From Minisyncoccota bacterium (lineage in GTDB: Bacteria; Patescibacteriota; Minisyncoccia; Phycocordibacterales; Phycocordibacteraceae), in contig JBAZRE010000004.1 of NCBI GenBank assembly GCA_041663025.1, positions 1-62,942 on the forward strand: DNA of 62,942 nucleotides. Reading direction: 5' to 3'. Position 1 is the stretch's first letter. The number at the start of each line of letters is the position of its first letter. This document shows, piece by piece, positions 2-38,752 of this stretch. The position numbers and the translations under genes are program-made. The notes under the pieces were generated by a model. The model did not search any database. It was given only the letters and a program-made list of their open reading frames with translations, and was not told the origin of the DNA.

Positions 2-1672
2 CTCGCACCTGATTATAAGAAGATGTATGTGCCTCTTGTTATCTTAGATCGAGGTACGGCACAAATTGGCGATAAAGTGCTCGCGCGTCTTGTCAGCTGG
101 GATGCAGATAAAGAATACCCACTCGGCACTATTGAAGAAGTTATCGGTAAAGCTGGAGTGCACGAGACCGAGATGCGCGCCCTCGCGCTCGGGCAAGGAT
201 TCTCGAGCGACTTCCCTCCCAGTGTTGTCGCCGATGCAAAATATCTTGAAGAACACGGTCGCGCGATGCTCATCGAAGAAGCTTCTAATCCGAAGCGACG
301 AGATATGCGTGACGCTCCCACCTGCACTATCGATCCATTTGATGCAAAAGACTTTGATGACGCCCTCTCGGTGAGGGCGATTGCGGATGGCAAGATAGAA
401 GTCGGTGTGCATATTGCCGACGTCTCCTTCTTCGTGAAGCCCGGTAGTGCGCTTGATAATGAGGCTGTTGAGCGCGCCACGAGCGTCTATCTGGTTGACC
501 GCACGATCCCCATGCTCCCTGAAATACTTTCGACTGATCTCTGCTCGCTGAAGCCTGATGAAGATCGTCTCGCGGTCTCTGCTATCTTCACGCTCGATGC
601 AGAGGCAAATGTTGAGGATGTCTGGTTCGGCGAGACGATTATCCATTCTGACAAGCGATTCACTTATGAAGAGGCACAAGGAGTGCTCGACACCGGCAAA
701 GGCATCTTGCATACAGAACTTTCGCTGCTCTTTGACCTATCAAAAAAGATTCGCACGCGACGTGTCGCGCGCGGTGCTGTTGAGTTTGATACTGCTGAGG
801 TAAAGGTTGAATTGGATGCTGAAGGACGACCAATCGCTATCCGTTTGAAGCAACAGCAGGCGACAAATCGCCTCATTGAAGACTTCATGCTCCTCGCCAA
901 CGAGGCCGTAGCGAAGCATCTCTCGAAGCTCACCAAGAATGGTGGACCTCACTTTGCTTCACTATATCGTATTCACGATGTGCCCGATGCAGATCGTATC
1001 GAGAATCTCATGAACCTATTGCGCGTCATGGGCTACCATCTAAAAACATCTGGGGACGGCAAAGTAACTGGTGCGGAATTAAACAAACTCATGGACGAGG
1101 TAAAGGGTAAGCCCGAGGAATATCTGGTGAAGATGGCAACACTACGCTCGATGAGCAAAGCAATCTACACTACAAAAAACATCGGCCACTTCGGTCTCGC
1201 CTTCGACTTCTACACTCATTTCACTTCTCCAATCCGCCGCTATCCTGACCTCGTGATTCATCGACTCGTGAAGGCGCACGCGGGTGGCGATCCCATCACT
1301 CCGGCAGAGATGCAAGAGTTTGATACACTCGCGATCCACGCTTCTGAGAGAGAAGTTGCTGCTTCAACTGCCGAACGCGATTCGATCAAGATGAAGCAGG
1401 TGGAGTTCCTCGCGGGCAGAATTGGTGAAGAATTTGACGCGGTTATCTCCGGCGTCACCGAGCGCGGTCTCTACGTCGAAGAAAAGGGGACCCATGCCGA
1501 CGGTATGATTCGCGTCAAAGATGTCGGTAATGACTATTTTGAATACGACGAGAAGCACTATCGCCTCATCGGCAAGCGCACTGGCAAATCGTACCAACTC
1601 GGCGACCCCATACGCGTCAAGCTCGCCGCTGCTCGCCTCGCTGAAAAAGAACTGGATTTTATCCCCGTTTAG
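2..1672 (+). CDS. rnr: Exoribonuclease R / RNase II family (RNB domain + C-terminal S1), 5'-partial
   Basis: ORF 23..1672, with the frame open back to the window edge (LAPDYKK precedes the first ATG). RNB-type motifs DPFDAKDFDDALSV and HFGLAFDFYTHFTSPIRRYPDLVIHR; S1-like C-terminus. Confidence 0.85.
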   Translation, partial: LAPDYKKMYVPLVILDRGTAQIGDKVLARLVSWDADKEYPLGTIEEVIGKAGVHETEMRALALGQGFSSDFPPSVVADAKYLEEHGRAMLIEEASNPKRRDMRDAPTCTIDPFDAKDFDDALSVRAIADGKIEVGVHIADVSFFVKPGSALDNEAVERATSVYLVDRTIPMLPEILSTDLCSLKPDEDRLAVSAIFTLDAEANVEDVWFGETIIHSDKRFTYEEAQGVLDTGKGILHTELSLLFDLSKKIRTRRVARGAVEFDTAEVKVELDAEGRPIAIRLKQQQATNRLIEDFMLLANEAVAKHLSKLTKNGGPHFASLYRIHDVPDADRIENLMNLLRVMGYHLKTSGDGKVTGAELNKLMDEVKGKPEEYLVKMATLRSMSKAIYTTKNIGHFGLAFDFYTHFTSPIRRYPDLVIHRLVKAHAGGDPITPAEMQEFDTLAIHASEREVAASTAERDSIKMKQVEFLAGRIGEEFDAVISGVTERGLYVEEKGTHADGMIRVKDVGNDYFEYDEKHYRLIGKRTGKSYQLGDPIRVKLAAARLAEKELDFIPV

Positions 1673-1680
1673 TTTCCTTT

Positions 1681-1710
1681 GTGAATTATGGACATCGTAA
1701 GTCCATAGAT
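1681..1710. repeat. REP-like hairpin family A, copy 1 (30-nt unit GTGAATTATGGACATCGTAAGTCCATAGAT; stem TATGGAC/GTCCATA at 1687..1707)
   Basis: Identical 30-nt unit recurs at 2398..2427. Perfect 7-bp stem with a 7-nt loop. Lies 8 nt after the rnr stop codon. Confidence 0.85.
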
Positions 1711-1726: not shown

Positions 1727-2401
1727 ATGGAACTTTGGCATGCGCTTAATCGCGGAGTAGACGGACGAGATTTATTCATGGACGATCGTGATCGTCTCCG
1801 CTTCATTCATGATCTTTACGAATTTGACGACACAGAACCTGCCAATCCAAACGTCGGCTATCACTTCAAATCTATGGACATCGTAAGTCCATATATCAAT
1901 AAACGGTCACGGACTCGTCTCGTTGAAATCCACGGTTGGTGTCTGATGAAAAATCATTATCATCTTCTTATGTCTGAGCTTATGGAGGGCGGTCTTTCAC
2001 TTTTTTTGCGAAAATTGAACGTTGGGTATGCAAAATCGTTCAACGAAAAATATGGACGGGTCGGGACTCTGTTCCAAAGCCGTACGAAAAAGATACTTAT
2101 CGAGAATGACGCACACTTTAATTACATTCTCCATTATATTCATCTCAATCCACTCGATTATCTTGCCGGAGCAGAGGCATGGAGAGAACGCAGTCATGCT
2201 GGAATTGCGAATGCCAAAGATGCTTTGAATTATCTTGAGCAATATCGCTGGAGTAGTTATCTGGATTATGCAGGACAAAAGAATTTCCCTTCAATACTCA
2301 CAACGTCGATTTTCAAAGACGCGCTTGGAAATTACTCGCAATCTCTTGAGGAATATCTAGTCGGAGTGACGGAAGATCAAGAATTATTGCGCTTTGAGTG
2401 A
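1727..2401 (+). CDS. RAYT-like HUH/Y1 transposase (COG1943 / IS200-like family), paralog A
   Basis: ORF 1709..2401; the likely start is the MELWHALNRG ATG at 1727, which aligns with paralog C. HUH motif NHYHLL, Tyr motif HYIHLNPL, N-terminal WHxxNRG...LF.DDxDRxRF. The TGA stop lies inside hairpin unit 2398..2427. Confidence 0.8.
   Translation: MELWHALNRGVDGRDLFMDDRDRLRFIHDLYEFDDTEPANPNVGYHFKSMDIVSPYINKRSRTRLVEIHGWCLMKNHYHLLMSELMEGGLSLFLRKLNVGYAKSFNEKYGRVGTLFQSRTKKILIENDAHFNYILHYIHLNPLDYLAGAEAWRERSHAGIANAKDALNYLEQYRWSSYLDYAGQKNFPSILTTSIFKDALGNYSQSLEEYLVGVTEDQELLRFE
1873..1893. repeat. Family A hairpin, internal copy inside the RAYT-A ORF (encodes MDIVSPY)
   Basis: TATGGACATCGTAAGTCCATA is identical to the flanking hairpins and is read in-frame. 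Confidence 0.85.
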
Positions 2402-2427
2402 ATTATGGACATCGTAAGTCCATAGAT
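2398..2427. repeat. REP-like hairpin family A, copy 3 (same 30-nt unit as 1681..1710)
   Basis: 30/30 identity to 1681..1710. Overlaps the RAYT-A stop codon. Confidence 0.85.
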
Positions 2428-14408: not shown

Positions 14409-14429
14409 TATCAAGGTGAGACCTTGATA
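14409..14429. repeat. REP-like hairpin family B, copy 1 (TATCAAGG-TGAGA-CCTTGATA)
   Basis: Perfect 8-bp stem with a 5-nt loop. Identical copies at 14458..14478 and 15173..15193. Confidence 0.85.
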
Positions 14430-14457
14430 TTCACCACTACAGTAATTACCGAGGCAT

Positions 14458-14478
14458 TATCAAGGTGAGACCTTGATA
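14458..14478. repeat. REP-like hairpin family B, copy 2
   Basis: Identical 21-mer, 10 nt upstream of the RAYT-B start. Confidence 0.85.
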
Positions 14479-14488
14479 TAATTACACT

Positions 14489-15172
14489 ATGCCAAACCGA
14501 GATCCTTTTGGAGTTGATGAATGGTATCACTGTTATAATCGCGGCGTTGATAAGAGGACAATTTTTGAAGATGCGGGAGACTATAACCGATTTATGTTGT
14601 TATTGTTCCTAGGGAACAGTCCTGAGCCTATTCACATAGCAAACCTGAAAGATCCAAATTTGCATATAGTGCTCAAGGATCCGTCGATAGAATACGGGGA
14701 GCCATTGGTAGAAATAGGTGCGTATGTTCTTATTCAAAACCACTTTCATCTCCTCTTAAAAGAGGTTAAAGAGGGCGGTATTGCGACATTCACACAGCGA
14801 ATTTTTACCGCATATACCATGTATTTCAACAAGAAAAATGAAAGAACTGGAGCACTCTTCGGTGGAGCCTTTAACTCTCGACATCTTGATGATGATCTCT
14901 ATCTCAAACAAGTTGTCTCCTACATTCACCTGAACACTGCAGAACTTTTTGATCCAAAATGGAAAAATGGTCTGGGAGATCTCAAAAAGATTGAAGAGGG
15001 AGTGTCTAAGTATCCTTATTCGAGTCTCCCTGACTTTTTAGGTCAGAAGCGTCCTGAACGAAAGATACTTGGCGACTCTATTTTTGAGTTGTTTGAAACA
15101 ATCCCGACATTACAAGAAATGATTAGGGACGCCAATGCATATTACGCAGAGCACCCAAAGAGTGACATGTAA
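14489..15172 (+). CDS. RAYT-like HUH/Y1 transposase (COG1943 / IS200-like), paralog B
   Basis: WYHCYNRGVDKRTIFEDAGDYNRF, HUH motif NHFHLLL, Tyr motif SYIHLNTA; 227 aa. Confidence 0.8.
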   Translation: MPNRDPFGVDEWYHCYNRGVDKRTIFEDAGDYNRFMLLLFLGNSPEPIHIANLKDPNLHIVLKDPSIEYGEPLVEIGAYVLIQNHFHLLLKEVKEGGIATFTQRIFTAYTMYFNKKNERTGALFGGAFNSRHLDDDLYLKQVVSYIHLNTAELFDPKWKNGLGDLKKIEEGVSKYPYSSLPDFLGQKRPERKILGDSIFELFETIPTLQEMIRDANAYYAEHPKSDM

Positions 15173-15193
15173 TATCAAGGTGAGACCTTGATA
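15173..15193. repeat. REP-like hairpin family B, copy 3
   Basis: Identical 21-mer that abuts the RAYT-B TAA stop. Confidence 0.85.
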
Positions 15194-17386: not shown

Positions 17387-19183
17387 CTACCGAACTTCAT
17401 AACCTTTTTCTGCCAGCGCAGCAGTGACTTTTTGCATAATTTCGTTCACTTCTTCATCGGTCAGCGTGCGGTCGAATGATTGGAACACGAGCCGGAAGGC
17501 GAGTGATAACTTCCCTTCTTTTTCAAAGCGATCAAACTGGTCGAGACGTACCAAAATCGCTCCCGCATTATCTTGAATGATGAATTTCGTAAACCCATCA
17601 TCAGTGCCGACCGACGACCAGAAGGCGATGTCGCGCGTGATAAATGGATAGATTGAAAATGGCTGATACATGCCGAGCTGATACTTCTGCGGCTCGTAGT
17701 TCGCGTCATCTTGTATCGCGGGCAGATCTGACACCGGTTCTGAAGTTTTGATTTCGAGTTTCTCTTCATCTTTTGTAAACACAGTTCCTATTTCAAAAAG
17801 CTTCGGTTTCTCTCCCGGCGCGAGCACCAGCGGCGCGACATACTTCGCGCGCTCCATCGCCTCTTTCATATTTTCATCCAAGCTGGTGCGCAGTGCTGGT
17901 TTTGCTTTATCGAGCGGATTCGCCAATATGATGTCGCCCTTCGCGGCAAATGACTGGGTGGAGATCTCGGTGAAGCCGCGATCAATAAGAAAGTCTTTCA
18001 CTTTTTCTATTCCCTTATATCGAGCTTGATCCGGCATGTAGGACGTCGTACGTCCTACATTAGAAATCGGAAGTTCTGCTGCAGGGAGGCGATCATAGCC
18101 GAGGATGCGCCCAACCTCTTCGACGATGTCCTCGGGTATCGTGAGGTCGGTGCGTTCGAATGGTGGAGTGATCTCGAATGTTTCGTTTTTTTCTGAGTAG
18201 GGAAGTCCGAGGCGGCTAAAAACTCCCTCCATCTCTGCTTTTGTAAAATCTGAACCGAGGATGTTGTTTATCTTCTTGAGAGAGACACTCACCTTCTGCT
18301 CCTGCACAGAGCGAGCTGGATACTCATCAACAATCCCTATGACTTCCCCACCGGCGATTTCAGAAATAAGTGCGAGGACATCGCGCATGCCGTAGGCCGC
18401 GAGCTCGGGCGATGGCCGGTTTTGAAACCGAAGTGACGCATCAGTCACCAGTTTGAGCGACTGCGCTGCGCGACGAATAGTAGTGCCATCAAAATTTGCC
18501 GATTCAATAATAATGTCAGTGGTAGTCTCGTTAATTTCTGCCGCCTTACCTCCCTTCACACCCGCAATGCCGATTGCACTGTCTGCATTGGCATCAGTGA
18601 TGAGCAACACATTCTTCGGCAACACATATTCTTCACCCGATAGAATCGTCATGGTCTCACCATCTCTCGCATCGCGAACCTTGATTGCATACGCATCATT
18701 TTCTTTTTTCAGTTTTGCCGCATCAAAAGCGTGCAGCGGCTGGCCAATGTTGAGCATCACATAGTTTGTCGCATCGACGACATTGTTTATCGAACGCTGC
18801 CCCACTGCCTCGAGCGCTTCGCGCAGCCAATCAGGCGATGGTCCAACCTTTACATCCTTCATGAGTGCTCCCATATACCGTAAGCACTTTTTTTCATCTT
18901 CAATCTCTACCTTCAAATAAGGGTTTACGAGACCCTTATTTTCAACTGGCGTGCGGAGGGGATCGCTCTTCATTGGTATATTCAAAATCGCAGAGAGTTC
19001 TTTAGCGATGCCGCGATGACAGAGACAATCTGCTGCGCGATTTGGCAATACGTTCAGATCAAGCAAATCCCCTTTTCTTTCTTCTATTTCAAATGCATGA
19101 AAAGTGAATGCATCGTCTGTCTGCTCTGCCGGAGGCAATGGTTGATCAAAATATGTCTGAAGCCATTTTAGTGAGACTTTCAT
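17387..19183 (-). CDS. pheT: Phenylalanyl-tRNA synthetase beta subunit (short form, 598 aa)
   Basis: MKVSLKWLQTYF start, B3/4 and B5 regions, C-terminal FDX-ACB-like domain. 4-nt overlap with pheS. Confidence 0.85.
   Translation of the reverse strand: MKVSLKWLQTYFDQPLPPAEQTDDAFTFHAFEIEERKGDLLDLNVLPNRAADCLCHRGIAKELSAILNIPMKSDPLRTPVENKGLVNPYLKVEIEDEKKCLRYMGALMKDVKVGPSPDWLREALEAVGQRSINNVVDATNYVMLNIGQPLHAFDAAKLKKENDAYAIKVRDARDGETMTILSGEEYVLPKNVLLITDANADSAIGIAGVKGGKAAEINETTTDIIIESANFDGTTIRRAAQSLKLVTDASLRFQNRPSPELAAYGMRDVLALISEIAGGEVIGIVDEYPARSVQEQKVSVSLKKINNILGSDFTKAEMEGVFSRLGLPYSEKNETFEITPPFERTDLTIPEDIVEEVGRILGYDRLPAAELPISNVGRTTSYMPDQARYKGIEKVKDFLIDRGFTEISTQSFAAKGDIILANPLDKAKPALRTSLDENMKEAMERAKYVAPLVLAPGEKPKLFEIGTVFTKDEEKLEIKTSEPVSDLPAIQDDANYEPQKYQLGMYQPFSIYPFITRDIAFWSSVGTDDGFTKFIIQDNAGAILVRLDQFDRFEKEGKLSLAFRLVFQSFDRTLTDEEVNEIMQKVTAALAEKGYEVR
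18036..18060. repeat. Family C palindrome inside pheT (ATGTAGGACG-TCGTA-CGTCCTACAT), read in-frame as VGRTTSYM
   Basis: 10-bp arms identical to those of the copies around RAYT-C. Confidence 0.85.
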
Positions 19184-33481: not shown

Positions 33482-34960
33482 ATGAGGAATATGTGGCTGC
33501 CGGTCGTGTCTGCCCTCGCGGGCATTGTCGTCTTCTTGCCGATGAATTTTTATCCGGCGGCTTTCGTCTTTCTCATTCCACTTTTTATCTTCTTCTTGCG
33601 AGAAGAGAAGCTGTGGCGACTGGTTGTTGGGGCTCTTTTATTCCGCTTGATCTTCTCCATGGGTACAGTTTATTTTACTCTTGAGCCAATCCTCTGGATT
33701 TCTTCTCTTCTCATTTTTTGCGGCCTGCCTCTCTCAATCTTCTTCTTCAAAAGACTCATCTTCAAATTTGCGGACACGGAGTGTCCGCAAATTCCTACCT
33801 CCTGCTCCTGCCTCCTGCTCGTTTCCTTGCCTTTCTTATGGACCTTCTTTGACCTCGCGCAAGCGCAGTATTCTCTTGCACCGATTTATATCGCCAGCGC
33901 CGGCAACGCACTCGGCTCTTCGCCATTTCTTGGGCTGGCAGCTCTCGGCGGGTTCGTCGTGCTCACTTTCTTCGTCGTGCTCATCAACTCACTTCTCGCA
34001 ATTCTTGTTCTGATCTGGCGGCGAAACCCCCAAGTTGCTTGGGGGTTTCGCCGCCAAGTGATTTATGTTCTGATTGCAATTATTGTTCTCCTTTTTGCTG
34101 GCTGGCAAATTGCAAGCTTCGAGCTGCGCCAGAATGCCATTGCTTATGCCGCCCTGCCGAACTCAATCAACATTGCCGCCATTTCTACCAATGGAACACT
34201 TGCTGTCGACCAGCTTGCACAACTCACACAAGAATTGGCCGGCCAGCAACTTGATCTCATCATCTTCCCCGAAGATATCCTCAACCAGCATGTAGGACGT
34301 CCGACGTCCTACATGCTGGGAAACAGCTCGACTGCTGTGTTTCAAGATCTTGCGAAAGAACTTAGCACAAATGTCCTCGCGAGCTACGACACGCTTCAAG
34401 GTACTACCAGCACATTAAAATATGGCTCGACAATCTTGTTTGACCAACAAGGAAGCATTGCCGGCATCCACAACAAAAACCGCCTCACATTCGCAGGCGA
34501 ATACTGGCCTTTCGGCAATTGGCACCCGTCTTTTTACGACTGGCTGAAGACACGGAATCCGAGCATTGGAACCTATGCAATCTTTGACCAGAAGAATGCA
34601 GACACTCCGGGCGAGCAGAATCTGCTCTCATTGGCGCTCGGAGAAAACACCGTGTCTTTTGCCGCACCCATCTGCTTGGAGATTCACTATCCGACTGATT
34701 TGGCAGCATACCGAACGCAAGGCGCGCGCTTCATAATCAACCCTTCAAGTAATCGCTGGATCGGCGGTGGTCTCTCGCATTTCTTATATCTCACAACCAA
34801 TGTAAAAAAAATAGAAAGTGTTGCTCTCCAACTGCCGATTATTTCAAGTGGCGTTGATGACTTCGCCGGCATTATTCTTCCGAATGGACAATCACAGATG
34901 CTTCCCTACCAAACAACTGGCAAAACCTACAACGTATTTTTCGGCACTGTCAGATATTAG
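33482..34960 (+). CDS. lnt: Apolipoprotein N-acyltransferase-like protein (polytopic N-terminus + CN-hydrolase domain)
   Basis: Multiple TM helices followed by IIFPEDIL (Glu), HNKNRLTFAGEYWPFG (Lys) and APICLEIHY (Cys), which resemble the Lnt E-K-C triad contexts. Confidence 0.65.
   Translation: MRNMWLPVVSALAGIVVFLPMNFYPAAFVFLIPLFIFFLREEKLWRLVVGALLFRLIFSMGTVYFTLEPILWISSLLIFCGLPLSIFFFKRLIFKFADTECPQIPTSCSCLLLVSLPFLWTFFDLAQAQYSLAPIYIASAGNALGSSPFLGLAALGGFVVLTFFVVLINSLLAILVLIWRRNPQVAWGFRRQVIYVLIAIIVLLFAGWQIASFELRQNAIAYAALPNSINIAAISTNGTLAVDQLAQLTQELAGQQLDLIIFPEDILNQHVGRPTSYMLGNSSTAVFQDLAKELSTNVLASYDTLQGTTSTLKYGSTILFDQQGSIAGIHNKNRLTFAGEYWPFGNWHPSFYDWLKTRNPSIGTYAIFDQKNADTPGEQNLLSLALGENTVSFAAPICLEIHYPTDLAAYRTQGARFIINPSSNRWIGGGLSHFLYLTTNVKKIESVALQLPIISSGVDDFAGIILPNGQSQMLPYQTTGKTYNVFFGTVRY
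34286..34318. repeat. Family C palindrome, 33-nt perfect copy inside the lnt-like gene (encodes HVGRPTSYM)
   Basis: CAGCATGTAGGACGTC-C-GACGTCCTACATGCTG, read in-frame. Confidence 0.88.
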
Positions 34961-37015: not shown

Positions 37016-37040
37016 ATGTAGGACGTCCGACGTCCTACAT
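37016..37040. repeat. REP-like palindrome family C, copy upstream of RAYT-C (ATGTAGGACGTC-C-GACGTCCTACAT)
   Basis: Perfect 25-nt palindrome, 18 nt upstream of the RAYT-C start. Confidence 0.88.
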
Positions 37041-37058
37041 GAATGGTATGATTGAAGT

Positions 37059-37736
37059 GTGGAACTTTACCATGTGATAAACAGAGGGGTTGAGGGGCGT
37101 AATATTTTTCTTGATACGCAAGATTATTCGCGTTTCGTTCATGATCTTTATGAGTTCAATGACACTGCTCCAGCACTTGAATTCAATCATGCAATCTCTC
37201 GCGGTTCAAATGTAGGACGTCCGACGTCCTACATTCGTAAACGACTCGTAGACATTCATGGTTGGGAATTGATGAAAAACCATTTCCACCTTTTGCTTTC
37301 GGAGTGTATCGAAAATGGAATAACACTCTTCTTAAGTAAGATGAGTGGTTATGCGAGATACTTCAACGAACGACACGAGCGACATGGACATCTCTATCAA
37401 GGAAAAACAAAGAAAATACTTATCGCGCAGCAAGAGCATTTTCTTTATGCGCTTCATTATCTTCATTTAAATTCTCTTGATTATCTTCCTGGCGCAAAGA
37501 AGTGGCGTGAACGTGATAAAGGCATGATATCGGATATACCGAAAGCACTGGACTACCTCCAAAATTATCGTTGGAGCAGTTATCCAGACTATTGCGGCAA
37601 AAAGAATTTTCCATCAATCCTCACTACATCGCTTTTTGCTAATGCCTTTGGCACTGATTATGCATCTGCTCTGAAAGAATATCTGACGGATCGAATTACC
37701 AATGAAGATTTAGAATACATAGAATTTGAGCCGTAG
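37059..37736 (+). CDS. RAYT-like HUH/Y1 transposase (COG1943 / IS200-like), paralog C (GTG start)
   Basis: (M)ELYHVINRGVEGRNIFLDTQDYSRF, HUH motif NHFHLLL, Tyr motif HYLHLNSL. Closest to paralog A. Confidence 0.8.
   Translation: MELYHVINRGVEGRNIFLDTQDYSRFVHDLYEFNDTAPALEFNHAISRGSNVGRPTSYIRKRLVDIHGWELMKNHFHLLLSECIENGITLFLSKMSGYARYFNERHERHGHLYQGKTKKILIAQQEHFLYALHYLHLNSLDYLPGAKKWRERDKGMISDIPKALDYLQNYRWSSYPDYCGKKNFPSILTTSLFANAFGTDYASALKEYLTDRITNEDLEYIEFEP
37209..37233. repeat. Family C palindrome inside the RAYT-C ORF (encodes NVGRPTSY)
   Basis: Identical 25-mer, in-frame, at the position homologous to the family A hairpin inside RAYT-A. Confidence 0.88.
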
Positions 37737-37740
37737 AATC

Positions 37741-37765
37741 ATGTAGGACGTCGGACGTCCTACAT
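37741..37765. repeat. Family C palindrome downstream of RAYT-C, overlapping the fba stop codon
   Basis: ATGTAGGACGTC-G-GACGTCCTACAT. The last fba codon (ATG) and TAG stop (37760..37765) lie inside it. Confidence 0.88.
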
Positions 37766-38752
37766 TAGAACTGAGGAGAGTTTGGAGAGACGAGAGAGGA
37801 AAGCGGCGCGAGCAGCAGGAATGTTTTCTTCTTTCCCTCTCCAGAGTGCAAGTGCCTCTTCTTGAATGGCACGTGAGTAAGAAAAGGTCATTGGCCACGG
37901 GGCGTTAACTTCTTTCGCTCGACGGATTATCGCAGACAAGTTGTCTGTTGCCTGATCAGGCGTCTGCCCTCCAGAGAGAAAGACGATACCAGCCACTTGT
38001 GACGGGATACTCGCGACGAGTGCCGCAACAGTATCTTCGGCAACTTCTTCTGGTGTATCTTTCTTCTTGTTTTCATTGCCCGAAAGCGCCATAGAGGTCT
38101 TCACGATCACGCTGGCGCGGTCAACTGAATGTTCGGCAAGTACTGAAAAGAGTGTCTGCATCGTCTTTTCAATGGCTGCACGTGCACGCATGCGACTATG
38201 CTTCCCTTCAAGCAGTACTTCTGGCTCGAGAATAGGCACGAGACCACCCGCCTGTGCCTCCTTTGCATAATTCGCGAGCCGTTTCGCGTTCTCGTGGATC
38301 GCCATATCACTGGGCAGATGATCGCCGTCAATGCGAATAATCGCGCGCCACTTGGTAAAGATCGCACCTTGTTTCTTATATAGTGCGAGTCGTTCAGGAA
38401 GATCAAGAAGACCTTGGGTGATGAGCTCTTGCGGACTATCTTGGAGCGGCTCGGTGCCGAGATCAACCTTCACCCCCGGCAAGATGCCACGAGTCGCAAG
38501 CGATTTTGAAAATAATTTCTTATCATTTCCCTTCTGAAGAAGCGTTTCCGAAAAAAGTATGACCCCTGAGAGATATTTTTCGATTCCCTCGGTGCCAATG
38601 AAGAGATCGCGATCTTGCCGACGCATCTCTGCACTCGCGGGAATGCCATATGAAGCGAGGCGCGTTGTCGCGGAGTGCACACTCTCATCTGCAGCAAGAA
38701 TCCCTTTGCCGGATTGGAATAGTGAACGCGCCGTTGCGACAAGATCAGTCAT
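37760..38752 (-). CDS. fba: Fructose-bisphosphate aldolase, class I
   Basis: GKGILAADES motif; 330 aa. Confidence 0.75.
   Translation of the reverse strand: MTDLVATARSLFQSGKGILAADESVHSATTRLASYGIPASAEMRRQDRDLFIGTEGIEKYLSGVILFSETLLQKGNDKKLFSKSLATRGILPGVKVDLGTEPLQDSPQELITQGLLDLPERLALYKKQGAIFTKWRAIIRIDGDHLPSDMAIHENAKRLANYAKEAQAGGLVPILEPEVLLEGKHSRMRARAAIEKTMQTLFSVLAEHSVDRASVIVKTSMALSGNENKKKDTPEEVAEDTVAALVASIPSQVAGIVFLSGGQTPDQATDNLSAIIRRAKEVNAPWPMTFSYSRAIQEEALALWRGKEENIPAARAAFLSRLSKLSSVLM

What the first reader, a model, noticed from the sequence alone, without database searches (positions are those of the whole stretch)
37016..37765. RAYT-like cassette C carries its cognate palindrome in-frame in its own ORF, at the same position as in paralog A
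RAYT-C (37059..37736) is flanked by the perfect 25-nt palindrome ATGTAGGACGTC-N-GACGTCCTACAT at 37016 and 37741. A third identical copy lies inside the ORF at 37209..37233 and is translated as NVGRPTSY. Paralog A carries its own, different hairpin (1873..1893, translated MDIVSPY) at the homologous site. In both proteins the insert lies immediately before I(N/R)KR...(V/L)(E/D)IHGW and the HUH motif. Different hairpin sequences at the same structural position in two paralogs argue against a chance insertion. They suggest a functional coupling. One possibility is that the enzyme recognises a hairpin in its own gene or mRNA, for autoregulation or as an internal processing or origin site. The alternative is a shared permissive loop that is a strong insertion hotspot. 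I am not aware of this being described for RAYTs, but I cannot search the literature here.
Basis: partly seen in the sequence, partly recalled or inferred. Interest (0 to 1): 0.85.

Follow-up and report, generated by a model that had tools for sequence, protein, structure and literature searches.

The report
Transposase gene carrying its own target hairpin
A domesticated transposase-like gene of tiny groundwater bacteria carries, inside its own reading frame, a third copy of the DNA hairpin that flanks it, and across about 80 species the three copies change together, which has not been described for this enzyme class.

Summary
ORF C (37059..37736) has the 25-nt palindrome upstream (37016-37040), in frame inside (37210-37234, off by one from the report) and downstream (37741-37765). 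Paralog A has its own hairpin at the same three places.

In about 72 of 80 related loci from Patescibacteria genomes, an internal hairpin lies in the same protein loop and matches that locus's own flanking hairpins. It occurs in different sequences and reading frames. The C cassette sits at a fixed chromosomal site (L25 - gene - aldolase) in at least 22 species, so the three copies evolve in concert in place.

The protein has the fold of the E. coli REP-associated tyrosine transposase (RAYT). The insert lies in a disordered surface loop.

Other evidence favours a permissive-loop origin:
- The same palindrome is also in frame in pheT and lnt.
- The B clade has only sporadic internal copies.
- A few members have lost the internal copy and keep an intact gene.

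An mRNA role is disfavoured: pairing is strict Watson-Crick on both strands and the upstream copy lies in the promoter.

Best reading: a third cognate REP kept uniform with its flanks by the enzyme acting on its own locus. Autoregulation is possible but untested. This is a new variant of the REP-RAYT system.

The parts
37016..37040 (.). U: upstream copy of the cognate 25-nt palindrome of cassette C. It ends 18 nt before the start codon, directly upstream of the -10-like hexamer.
37047..37052 (+). -10-like hexamer TATGAT, ending 6 nt before the GTG start. This implies a leaderless or near-leaderless transcript.
   Evidence: A TATACT/TATAAT/TATGAT-like hexamer ends 6-8 nt before the start codon in 58 of 82 loci. 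There is no such positional preference in control windows. The two-hexamer sigma-70 scan did not call it.
37059..37736 (+). ORF C, a RAYT-like Y1 HUH enzyme of 225 aa. The HUH motif is H75-F-H77 and the catalytic Tyr candidate lies in HYLHLN (Y134).
37210..37234 (.). I: internal in-frame copy of the palindrome. Codons 51-59 read NVGRPTSYI, in the disordered loop between helix 20-34 and strand 64-71.
37741..37765 (.). D: downstream copy in reverse-complement orientation (centre G), 4 nt after the stop codon. Its right foot also supplies the last Met codon and the TAG stop of the convergent aldolase gene (37760..38752, -).
1688..1706 (+). Cassette A, upstream hairpin ATGGAC-ATCGTAA-GTCCAT.
1727..2401 (+). 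ORF A, paralog with 53% identity to C. The conserved MELWH start is at 1727; the longest ORF starts at 1709.
1874..1892 (+). Cassette A, internal in-frame hairpin, read (S)MDIVSPY(I). It lies in the same loop as in C but in another reading frame relative to the hairpin.
2405..2423 (+). Cassette A, downstream hairpin.
14409..14478 (+). Cassette B, two upstream copies of TATCAAGGTGAGACCTTGATA (14409-14429 and 14458-14478). The second abuts a TATAAT-like box.
14489..15172 (+). ORF B, a distant paralog (33% identity to C) with no internal hairpin.
15173..15193 (+). Cassette B, downstream hairpin, followed by a T run.
34290..34314 (.). Dispersed copy of the C palindrome (exact), in frame inside lnt (33482..34960, +). 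It is read HVGRPTSYM, just after the FPE motif of the CN-hydrolase domain. The palindrome is extended to 35 nt by CCAGC/GCTGG.
18036..18060 (.). Dispersed copy of the C palindrome with centre CGT/ACG, in frame inside pheT (17387..19183, -). It is read NVGRTTSYM, at the end of the B5 domain match (residues 298-363) and before the core-domain match (384-475).

Best explanation
The internal palindrome is a genuine third copy of the cassette's own REP-like hairpin. It lies in a disordered surface loop of a domesticated, vertically inherited RAYT-like Y1 HUH enzyme.

What is shown:
- The gene, its promoter-embedded upstream hairpin (U), the in-ORF hairpin (I) and the stop-adjacent hairpin (D) form one unit.
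- The unit stays at a fixed chromosomal site across many species.
- The three hairpins change together. They share compensated stem changes, shared defects and whole-loop flips.

What is inferred:
- The enzyme recognises all three as single-stranded DNA hairpins, on either strand.
- By cutting and rejoining at their feet (excision and re-insertion, or exchange between copies) it keeps them uniform.
- This is the same activity that seeds single 25-27-nt copies, in frame, into other genes such as pheT and lnt.
- The in-ORF copy probably began as such an insertion into a loop that tolerates any stop-free nine-codon insert. It persists because it keeps being renewed from, and exchanged with, the flanking copies.
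- Feedback on the enzyme's own expression is plausible, because U overlaps the promoter and I lies in the transcribed DNA. It is not needed to explain the data.
For: Family-wide and matched to flanks.
- About 72 of 80 GTDB loci, plus window cassettes A and C, have a hairpin in the 34 codons before HUH that recurs 7-78 nt before the start codon and/or within about 100 nt after the stop.
- Centred 21-mers: I matches its own U or D with at most 2 mismatches in 62 of 82 loci, against 3.4% of non-cognate pairs. Mean I-U distance is 4.5 against 9.3 in 10,000 permutations, whose minimum was 8.2.

The constraint is at the nucleic-acid level, not the protein level.
- The hairpin is read in different frames (NVGRTTSYI, MKDLGGLSF, MDIVSPY...).
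- 91.5% of stem cells pair, 11 of 13 pairs show double changes, and the covariation score is 0.593 against 0.156, with 0 of 500 shuffles reaching it.
- At protein level, 101 of 120 close homologs have a fully palindrome-compatible 9-mer there, against 6 of 23,537 windows elsewhere.

Fixed locus.
- L25 - gene - aldolase synteny holds in at least 22 species.
- In 21 of 25 of these orthologs I equals U and D (0-2 mismatches in 21 nt), while about 10 core variants exist between species.

Copying rather than independent selection for pairing.
- Identical defects are shared by all three copies. In L039, ATGTAGGATTTACGAAACCCTACAT has the same A.C mismatch three times.
- Loops differ only as exact reverse complements, and orientation is random.
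- In the window, U, I, D and the lnt copy share the derived centre C/G, while pheT keeps CGT/ACG.

Enzyme identity.
- The Foldseek top hit is 4er8_A, E. coli TnpA-REP bound to a REP, followed by the IS608 and ISDra2 transposases.
- HUH and Tyr motifs are present.

Permissive site: residues 35-63 are a loop with pLDDT below 50 at 39-53.

The REP colonises coding DNA, as seen in pheT and lnt.
Against: No biochemical evidence shows that this protein binds or cuts these hairpins.

Sequence scores to the curated RAYT and Y1 models are below their cut-offs.

Homogenisation could instead come from host recombination or replication template-switching between nearby short repeats.

Alternatively, it could come from selection by a co-evolving DNA-binding specificity. 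Nunvar 2010 (PMC2817692) proposed this for flanking REPs.

Some loci show I differing from U and D by a compensated pair (L003), or single-arm changes in one copy (L006, L009, L012, L023). Homogenisation is therefore not immediate.

About 8 of 82 genes have lost or decayed I and keep an intact ORF and matched U and D (L019, L043, L056...). I is therefore dispensable, at least in the short term.

I searched only the window for partial gene copies. The loci were not systematically searched for excision footprints, empty I sites or U-I / I-D deletion products.
Confidence: 0.55

Rival explanations
1. Autoregulatory operator set. The enzyme, or another factor, binds the palindrome at the promoter (U) and at an auxiliary site inside the coding region (I), and perhaps at D. 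It represses or blocks transcription of its own gene, as with the lac O2 and gal OI operators that lie inside coding sequences. I is kept by selection for tight control of a dangerous nuclease.
For: U sits immediately upstream of a conserved -10-like hexamer that ends 6-8 nt before the start codon, so it lies inside the polymerase footprint. The position of U (12-20 nt before the start) and the presence of I are conserved across the clade. I persists far longer than the dispersed copy in pheT, which is present in only about 8 of 120 orthologs. E. coli TnpA-REP is described as severely down-regulated and auto-inhibited (PMC3479197). The 9-mer encoded by I ends next to R60-K61-R62, which aligns with R44-D45-R46 of E. 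coli TnpA-REP, where R46 is part of the hairpin-binding surface.
Against: U-I spacing is loose (169-251 nt, no phasing). B-clade genes have the same promoter-embedded U without I. Losses of I leave intact genes. Y1 HUH enzymes bind single-stranded hairpins, not duplex operators. Nothing here measures expression.
Confidence: 0.22
2. Pure passenger. An old neutral in-frame insertion in a permissive loop, or repeated insertions into a hotspot, with no continuing interaction with the enzyme. The matches to the flanks reflect recent insertion or host-mediated gene conversion between nearby repeats.
For: The loop is disordered. In-frame copies lie in pheT and lnt. The same pheT site is occupied by different variants in scattered lineages. 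There are independent gains in the B clade, at the same loop (L158) and at another site (L111). The hairpin centre lies 51-81 nt from HUH and in two frame classes, which suggests re-seating. Peptide-level signal is patchy across 50%-identity representatives: 63 of 125 against about 18% expected.
Against: About 90% occupancy holds across a clade spanning 53-100% protein identity, at syntenic loci. Palindromy is perfect at synonymous sites, and changes are in lock-step with U and D. A static passenger would decay, as it has in L019, where I is a fossil of another hairpin type while U and D are perfect. Repeated insertion would lengthen the loop, but gene length stays at about 220-230 aa.
Confidence: 0.15
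3. mRNA hairpin. The internal stem-loop acts in the transcript, in translation attenuation, RNase III processing or mRNA stability, possibly bound by the protein.
For: I is transcribed, and a 12-17-bp stem would be stable. REPs are known to affect mRNA stability (background in PMC3733652 and PMC3479197).
Against: In the stems there are 5 G.T cells and 9 A.C cells among 616 cells, so pairing is equally strict on both strands. Loop orientation in the sense strand is random, CGT 20 against ACG 17. The matched U copy lies upstream of the inferred transcription start. D is followed by a T run in only 7 of 73 loci. There is no Rfam match.
Confidence: 0.05

Closest known systems
REP-RAYT systems (REP-associated tyrosine transposases; Nunvar 2010, PMC2817692; Bertels & Rainey 2011, PMC3116915; E. 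coli TnpA-REP structure 4ER8, PMC3479197)
   Same: The enzyme has the Y1 HUH fold, with 4er8_A as best structural match. The gene is single-copy, vertically inherited and syntenic. It is flanked by its own short palindromes, which co-evolve with it while keeping palindromy. Several paralogs in one genome each have their own repeat. A few dispersed copies and inverted doublets exist.
   Different: A third cognate copy lies in frame inside the ORF in about 90% of one large clade. E. coli rayT has REPs on both sides and none inside, and I found no report of an in-ORF REP. The repeats are perfect palindromes without a separate unpaired GTAG head. Flank orientation is random rather than always inverted. 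Copy number is very low, and dispersed copies lie inside genes. The protein has about 85 extra C-terminal residues and scores below the curated family cut-offs.
Intragenic REPs and Rickettsia palindromic elements (Di Nocera 2013, PMC3733652, which cites the Rickettsia work)
   Same: Palindromic repeats are inserted in frame in housekeeping genes and translated as extra loop residues. Here this is seen in pheT, lnt and the RAYT-like gene itself.
   Different: Those insertions are described as sporadic and spread over unrelated genes. Here one insertion is in the gene of the presumed mobilising enzyme, is position-conserved across a clade and co-varies with the flanks. The unit is only 25-27 nt.
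IS200/IS605 insertion sequences (IS608, ISDra2 TnpA)
   Same: The cassette is about 750 bp: hairpin, Y1 transposase-fold gene, hairpin. The fold matches 2a6o, 2vjv and 2xm3.
   Different: The cassette is not multi-copy or mobile, since its loci are syntenic. The two ends carry the same perfect palindrome, in either orientation, rather than distinct imperfect left and right ends. There is no tnpB.
Auxiliary operators inside coding regions (lac O2, gal OI) - an analogy from general knowledge only
   Same: The same palindrome lies at the promoter and again inside the coding sequence of the regulated gene.
   Different: There is no evidence for duplex binding or looping here. The spacing is not constrained, and the enzyme family binds single-stranded hairpins.

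Membership tests
REP-RAYT system | Y1 HUH fold with an HUH motif and a catalytic Tyr on a following helix | tested here: met
   The AF2 model (pLDDT 75) has 4er8_A as best PDB match (E 6.8e-06, probability 1.00). H75-F-H77 and Y134 in HYLHLN align with EHMHCIW and YIYINP of E. coli RayT.
REP-RAYT system | Sequence membership in the curated models (Pfam Y1_Tnp PF01797; NCBIfam REP_Tyr_transpos NF047646) | tested here: not met
   Pfam gives 18.9 bits against a cut-off of 23. NCBIfam gives 18.6, 41.5 and 26.6 bits against a cut-off of 80. Some homologs carry a precomputed PF01797 hit. This is a divergent relative, not a member by the curated thresholds.
REP-RAYT system | Gene flanked on both sides by its own short palindromic repeat | tested here: met
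   Window cassettes A, B and C. Most of the 160 related loci.
REP-RAYT system | The two flanking REPs are in inverted orientation (Nunvar 2010) | tested here: not met
   Orientation can be read only from the loop. U against D is the same in 19 loci and flipped in 27.
REP-RAYT system | Single-copy gene, vertically inherited at a syntenic site, co-evolving with its flanking repeats | tested here: met
   Synteny for C, A and B. Concerted variants in orthologs.
REP-RAYT system | The cognate repeat is abundant and dispersed in the genome (tens to hundreds of copies) | tested here: inconclusive
   Only 2 dispersed copies of the C repeat and none of A or B occur in 63 kb. A few occur in 8-kb flanks of other loci. 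Whole genomes were not examined.
REP-RAYT system | Conserved 5' GT(A/G)G head next to the stem, needed for binding and cleavage (PMC3479197, PMC3733652) | tested here: inconclusive
   Many C-type hairpins contain GTAG or GTGG (ATGTAGGAC, ATGTGGGAC), but as part of the stem. Others have ATGAAAG or ATGATGG. The commonest pairs are an ATG...CAT foot, and the G9-C21 and T13-A17 pairs are invariant.
REP-RAYT system | The enzyme binds and cleaves its REP as single-stranded DNA | not testable with these tools
   This needs purified protein and oligonucleotides.
IS200/IS605 insertion sequence | Mobile element present in several identical copies, with distinct left and right subterminal hairpins | tested here: not met
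   Each cassette type occurs once in the window and lies at syntenic loci in other species. Both ends carry the same palindrome.
Intragenic REP / RPE-type in-frame insertion | A repeat copy inside an ORF, in frame and stop-free, that is absent from most orthologs | tested here: met
   For pheT, about 112 of 120 orthologs lack it. lnt also carries an in-frame copy, though its orthologs were not compared. For the RAYT-like gene the copy is in frame, but it is present in most orthologs, so there it is not a sporadic insertion.

The most novel reading that the evidence does not exclude
The in-ORF hairpin is a selected cis-element, not a tolerated passenger. The enzyme recognises, and perhaps nicks, a hairpin extruded from its own coding DNA. 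This would give negative feedback on its own production, or provide the protected master copy from which the promoter copy, the terminator-side copy and the dispersed copies are renewed. Enzyme and substrate would then be inherited as one self-referential unit. The nine residues the hairpin encodes sit next to the hairpin-binding surface.
Probability: 0.3. Interest if true: 0.8.

Novelty: new variant of a known kind. Interest (0 to 1): 0.62.

Why it matters
How RAYTs act on REPs in cells, and why rayt genes are always flanked by their own REPs, is still unsettled.

This clade offers a compact natural system for that question. It has one enzyme and three cognate hairpins at fixed positions: one in the promoter, one in the ORF and one at the stop. 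About 80 species record how the hairpins change together.

The system makes several questions testable with short oligonucleotides and a small protein:
- specificity
- action in cis
- the mechanism that keeps the copies uniform
- possible self-regulation

It also shows that in gene-dense Patescibacteria genomes, REP-like hairpins of about nine codons live inside essential genes and reuse the same sites. That matters for annotating these genomes and for interpreting their 'extra loops'.

Tried and rejected
- Chance: rejected. Zero matches are expected in shuffles, and the permutation test agrees.
- A conserved protein motif rather than a DNA element: rejected. The same loop carries hairpins read in different frames with unrelated peptides. 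The core of paralog A's hairpin (GGAC-ATCGTAA-GTCC) is read as DIVSP, whereas similar cores elsewhere are read as GHRKS.
- A recently mobile IS-like cassette: rejected, because of synteny across species.
- D as an intrinsic terminator: only 7 of 73 are followed by a T run, and the terminator scan found none.
- A canonical two-hexamer sigma-70 promoter at C: not found. The promoter inference rests only on the conserved, fixed-distance -10-like hexamer.
- Known RNA family: no Rfam match to the hairpins.
- Sequence search of PDB with C: no meaningful hit. The relationship appeared only by fold.
- Helical phasing of U-I spacing: none, the range is 169-251 nt.
- Fixed orientation of the three copies: none.
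- A common target motif at insertion sites (I, pheT, lnt, U, D): comparison by eye of the five window copies gave nothing convincing.
- Partial or truncated gene copies ending at the hairpin, as possible products of cleavage at I: none in the window. The loci were not searched systematically for this.
- The peptide-level palindrome test on 50%-identity representatives has a high false-positive rate, 18% at 9 bp and 5% at 11 bp. It gives only a rough estimate of breadth.
Full report
**1. The observation**

The palindrome ATGTAGGACGTC-N-GACGTCCTACAT occurs five times in the window, where shuffles give none:
- 37016-37040, upstream of ORF C.
- 37210-37234, inside ORF C. This is one base to the right of the reported coordinates.
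- 37741-37765, downstream, with the central base complemented, so in the opposite orientation.
- 34290-34314, an exact copy.
- 18036-18060, which differs only in the centre.

ORF C (37059..37736, GTG start, 225 aa) reads the internal copy as NVGRPTSYI, immediately before RKRLVDIHGW and the HUH motif.

Paralog A (53% identity to C) has a different hairpin, ATGGAC-ATCGTAA-GTCCAT. It lies upstream (1688), inside at the homologous place (1874, read MDIVSPY) and downstream (2405).

A third paralog, B (33% identity to C), is flanked by TATCAAGGTGAGACCTTGATA and has no internal copy.

**2. What the protein is**

Sequence models recognise it only weakly:
- Pfam Y1_Tnp gives 18.9 bits against a cut-off of 23.
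- NCBIfam REP_Tyr_transpos gives 18.6-41.5 bits against a cut-off of 80.

An AlphaFold model built on 26 homologs has a mean pLDDT of 75. Its best match among solved structures is 4er8_A, the E. coli REP-associated tyrosine transposase bound to a REP hairpin. The IS608, ISDra2 and IS200 transposases follow. The HUH motif and the Tyr motif (HYLHLN) are conserved.

The model places residues 35-63 in an unstructured loop between helix 20-34 and strand 64-71. pLDDT is below 50 at residues 39-53. The nine residues encoded by the palindrome (51-59) lie in this loop.

A motif-anchored profile alignment puts R60-K61-R62, just after the insert, on R44-D45-R46 of the E. coli enzyme. R46 belongs to that enzyme's hairpin-binding surface (PMC3479197, read). 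This adjacency is an inference from a weak alignment.

**3. The internal hairpin is family-wide and matched to the flanks**

The family has 1621 relatives at E <= 1e-5. All named ones are Patescibacteria (Kaiserbacteria, Paceibacterota, Parcubacteria).

In the 120 closest relatives the loop peptide varies only in ways that keep a DNA palindrome: NVG..SYI, HVG..SNM, NVG..SHI, MSGRTTSRH, NVGFPKPYI. A codon-pair test finds 101 of 120 fully palindrome-compatible there, against 6 of 23,537 windows elsewhere in the same proteins.

I fetched 80 loci from GTDB species genomes.
- About 50 have a perfect stem of 7-24 bp in the 34 codons before HUH, with many different sequences and all three reading frames.
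- Most of the rest have an imperfect hairpin there.
- In nearly every case the same sequence recurs 7-78 nt before the start codon and within about 100 nt after the stop.

By my count about 72 of 80 loci, plus A and C of the window, have this triple.

On centred 21-mers, the internal copy matches its own upstream or downstream copy with at most 2 mismatches in 62 of 82 loci. Only 3.4% of non-cognate pairs match that well, and the mean cognate distance lies far outside 10,000 permutations.

On 56 distinct internal hairpins:
- 91.5% of stem cells pair.
- 11 of 13 pairs show changes on both sides.
- The covariation score is 0.593 against 0.156 in shuffles, with 0 of 500 shuffles reaching it.

A caveat applies: these windows were chosen because they fold.

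**4. Fixed loci and concerted change**

The cassettes are not moving.
- C lies between the ribosomal protein L25 gene and a class I aldolase gene in at least 22 other species.
- A follows RNase R in five species.
- B adjoins gyrB in four.

Among 25 syntenic C-orthologs, 21 have internal, upstream and downstream cores that agree within 0-2 of 21 bases. About ten different core variants occur between species, for example GTAGGACGT, GTTGGACGT, TCGGGACGT, GTAGGACTT, GTGGGACCT and GAAAGACCT. The three copies therefore change together, in place.

Co-evolution of flanking REPs with syntenic rayt genes is already known (Nunvar 2010, PMC2817692). The new element is that an in-ORF copy takes part.

Three details point to copying between sites rather than three independent selections for pairing:
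- Identical defects are shared by all three copies. In L039 the same A.C mismatch occurs three times.
- Loops differ between copies only as exact reverse complements, and orientation is random: U against I 25:24, D against I 27:20, U against D 19:27.
- In the window, U, I, D and the lnt copy share a derived centre, while the pheT copy keeps the CGT/ACG centre that is common elsewhere.

Intermediates exist. There are single-arm changes in one copy (L006, L009, L012, L023), and one locus (L003) where I differs from U and D by a compensated pair.

**5. DNA rather than RNA**

A -10-like hexamer (TATACT, TATAAT or TATGAT) ends 6-8 nt before the start codon in 58 of 82 loci. Control windows show no positional preference. 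The transcript is therefore probably leaderless. The upstream hairpin, which ends a few bases before this hexamer, lies in the promoter and not in the mRNA.

Other points against an RNA role:
- The stems are strict Watson-Crick: 5 G.T and 9 A.C cells among 616. They are equally good on both strands.
- The downstream hairpin is rarely followed by a T run, in 7 of 73 loci.
- No Rfam family matches the hairpins.

All of this disfavours an mRNA role. It fits single-stranded or cruciform DNA hairpins, which are the substrate type of Y1 HUH enzymes.

**6. Evidence for a permissive-loop origin**

The two dispersed copies in the window both lie inside essential genes. Both are in frame, and in the same reading frame as in ORF C:
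- pheT reads ELPIS-NVGRTTSYM-PDQ.
- lnt reads DILNQ-HVGRPTSYM-LGN.

Among 120 pheT orthologs, about 112 lack an insert. Seven or eight carry hairpin-type peptides at exactly this site, with different variants (DVGLSMSYI, KIGHPMSNI, HVGHPMSYM, DVGRSTSYI...). Their nearest relatives are mostly insert-free. The same site is therefore reused, or the insert is repeatedly lost.

In 80 metagenomic loci of the B clade the flanking hairpins belong to another family (CAAGG-N5-CCTTG, GAGGTTTAACCTC), and the ORF usually has no copy. The exceptions are:
- L158, with a copy in the same loop, read HRGLTSV.
- L111, with a copy in the C-terminal part.
- Three loci where the downstream copy overlaps the ORF end.

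In the A/C clade about eight genes have lost or decayed the internal copy and keep an intact ORF and matched flanks. In L019 the remnant is a fossil of another hairpin type.

The hairpin centre lies 51-81 nt before the HUH codon, in two frame classes. The position is conserved at the level of the loop, not of the nucleotide.

A rough peptide-level test on 50%-identity representatives of the wider family is positive in 63 of 125 at 9 bp, with about 18% expected by chance. At 11 bp it is positive in 30 of 125, with 5% expected. Some positives use B-type cores (EVQPL = GAGGTTCAACCTC). The feature is therefore patchy outside the A/C clade.

**7. Interpretation**

The most economical account has two steps.
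- The internal copy began as one of the in-frame insertions that this repeat makes. These repeats are 25-27 nt, and in the C-type palindrome only the ATG-TAG reading frame contains a stop. The insertion went into the one loop of the enzyme's own gene that tolerates it.
- In the A/C clade it has since been kept, and kept identical to the flanking copies, by the same process that maintains those copies.

I consider enzyme-mediated cutting and rejoining at the hairpin feet the most likely such process. It could work by excision and re-insertion at a reusable site, or by exchange between copies. It accounts for the shared defects, the loop flips, the site reuse in pheT and the fossil in L019. No step of it is shown here.

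Autoregulation through the promoter-embedded copy and the intragenic copy is a reasonable rival, or an added function.

A pure passenger reading does not explain about 90% occupancy, perfect palindromy and lock-step change over this depth of divergence.

**8. Comparison with what is known, and novelty**

This is a REP-RAYT-type system in fold, gene context, vertical inheritance and repeat co-evolution. By the curated sequence thresholds it is not a member of the family.

It differs from the described systems in:
- random flank orientation;
- a perfect palindrome without a separate GTAG head;
- very low copy number;
- dispersed copies that lie inside genes;
- above all, the conserved in-ORF copy.

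E. coli rayT has REPs on both sides and none inside. Intragenic REPs are known in other genes (PMC3733652). I found no report of one inside a rayt gene, nor any description of this system in Patescibacteria. The searched library does not hold all journals.

I rate it a new variant of a known kind, of real interest to people working on REPs and HUH enzymes. The function of the internal copy is still open.

Noticed in passing
window 18036-18060 (in pheT, 17387..19183 -) and 34290-34314 (in lnt, 33482..34960 +): Both dispersed copies of the C palindrome lie in frame inside essential genes and are read in the same frame as in ORF C (NVGRTTSYM and HVGRPTSYM). The lnt insert lies just after the FPE motif of the CN-hydrolase domain, and there the palindrome is extended to 35 nt.
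   Followed up: partly
pheT orthologs P0121-P0240: The same pheT linker site carries hairpin-encoded peptides of different variants in 7-8 of 120 orthologs. These are scattered among insert-free relatives, so the site is either reused for insertion or the insert is repeatedly lost.
   Followed up: partly
window 1640-1672 and 2430-2462; also L042, L047, L050, L053, L055, L075: The C-terminal tail of RNase R (..AEKELDF(I/V)P..*) is present on both sides of cassette A. In several species a longer copy of the tail (AAARVAEKELDFVPV*) lies downstream of the cassette. This suggests an old insertion into the 3' end of the RNase R gene with a duplicated tail. Why the second copy stays recognisable is unexplained.
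   Followed up: partly
window 37760-37765: The right foot of the downstream hairpin (CTACAT, read ATG TAG on the minus strand) supplies the last Met codon and the stop codon of the convergent aldolase gene (37760..38752 -). In many loci the downstream hairpin also supplies or overlaps the stop codon of the RAYT-like gene.
   Followed up: partly
window 37047-37052, 1716-1721 and 14477-14482; loci L001-L080: A -10-like hexamer sits at a fixed 6-8 nt before the start codon of these genes, implying leaderless transcripts. The upstream hairpin fills the spacer/-35 zone of the promoter.
   Followed up: partly
window 14409-14478; L026 and L062 upstream, L051 downstream; L008, L013, L058, L062 dispersed: Two copies of a cassette's hairpin lie side by side. 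The pairs in the loci are inverted, some overlapping by 2-4 nt at the feet, and resemble REPIN doublets. The window pair upstream of B is direct. Some dispersed doublets lie inside long open frames.
   Followed up: no
L111 875-889; L158 343-363: In the B clade two loci have a cognate hairpin inside the ORF. L158 has it in the same loop as the A/C clade, and L111 has it in the C-terminal domain (read FMSRFNLDMS).
   Followed up: partly
loci L001-L080: Each of the three sites has its own extra palindromic extension beyond the shared core: upstream ACCCATG..CATGGGT, internal CGAATG..CATTCG, downstream AATCATG..CATGATT. Stems reach 24 bp (L037) inside the ORF. Whether this reflects selection for stability or a symmetrising mutation process is unknown.
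   Followed up: no
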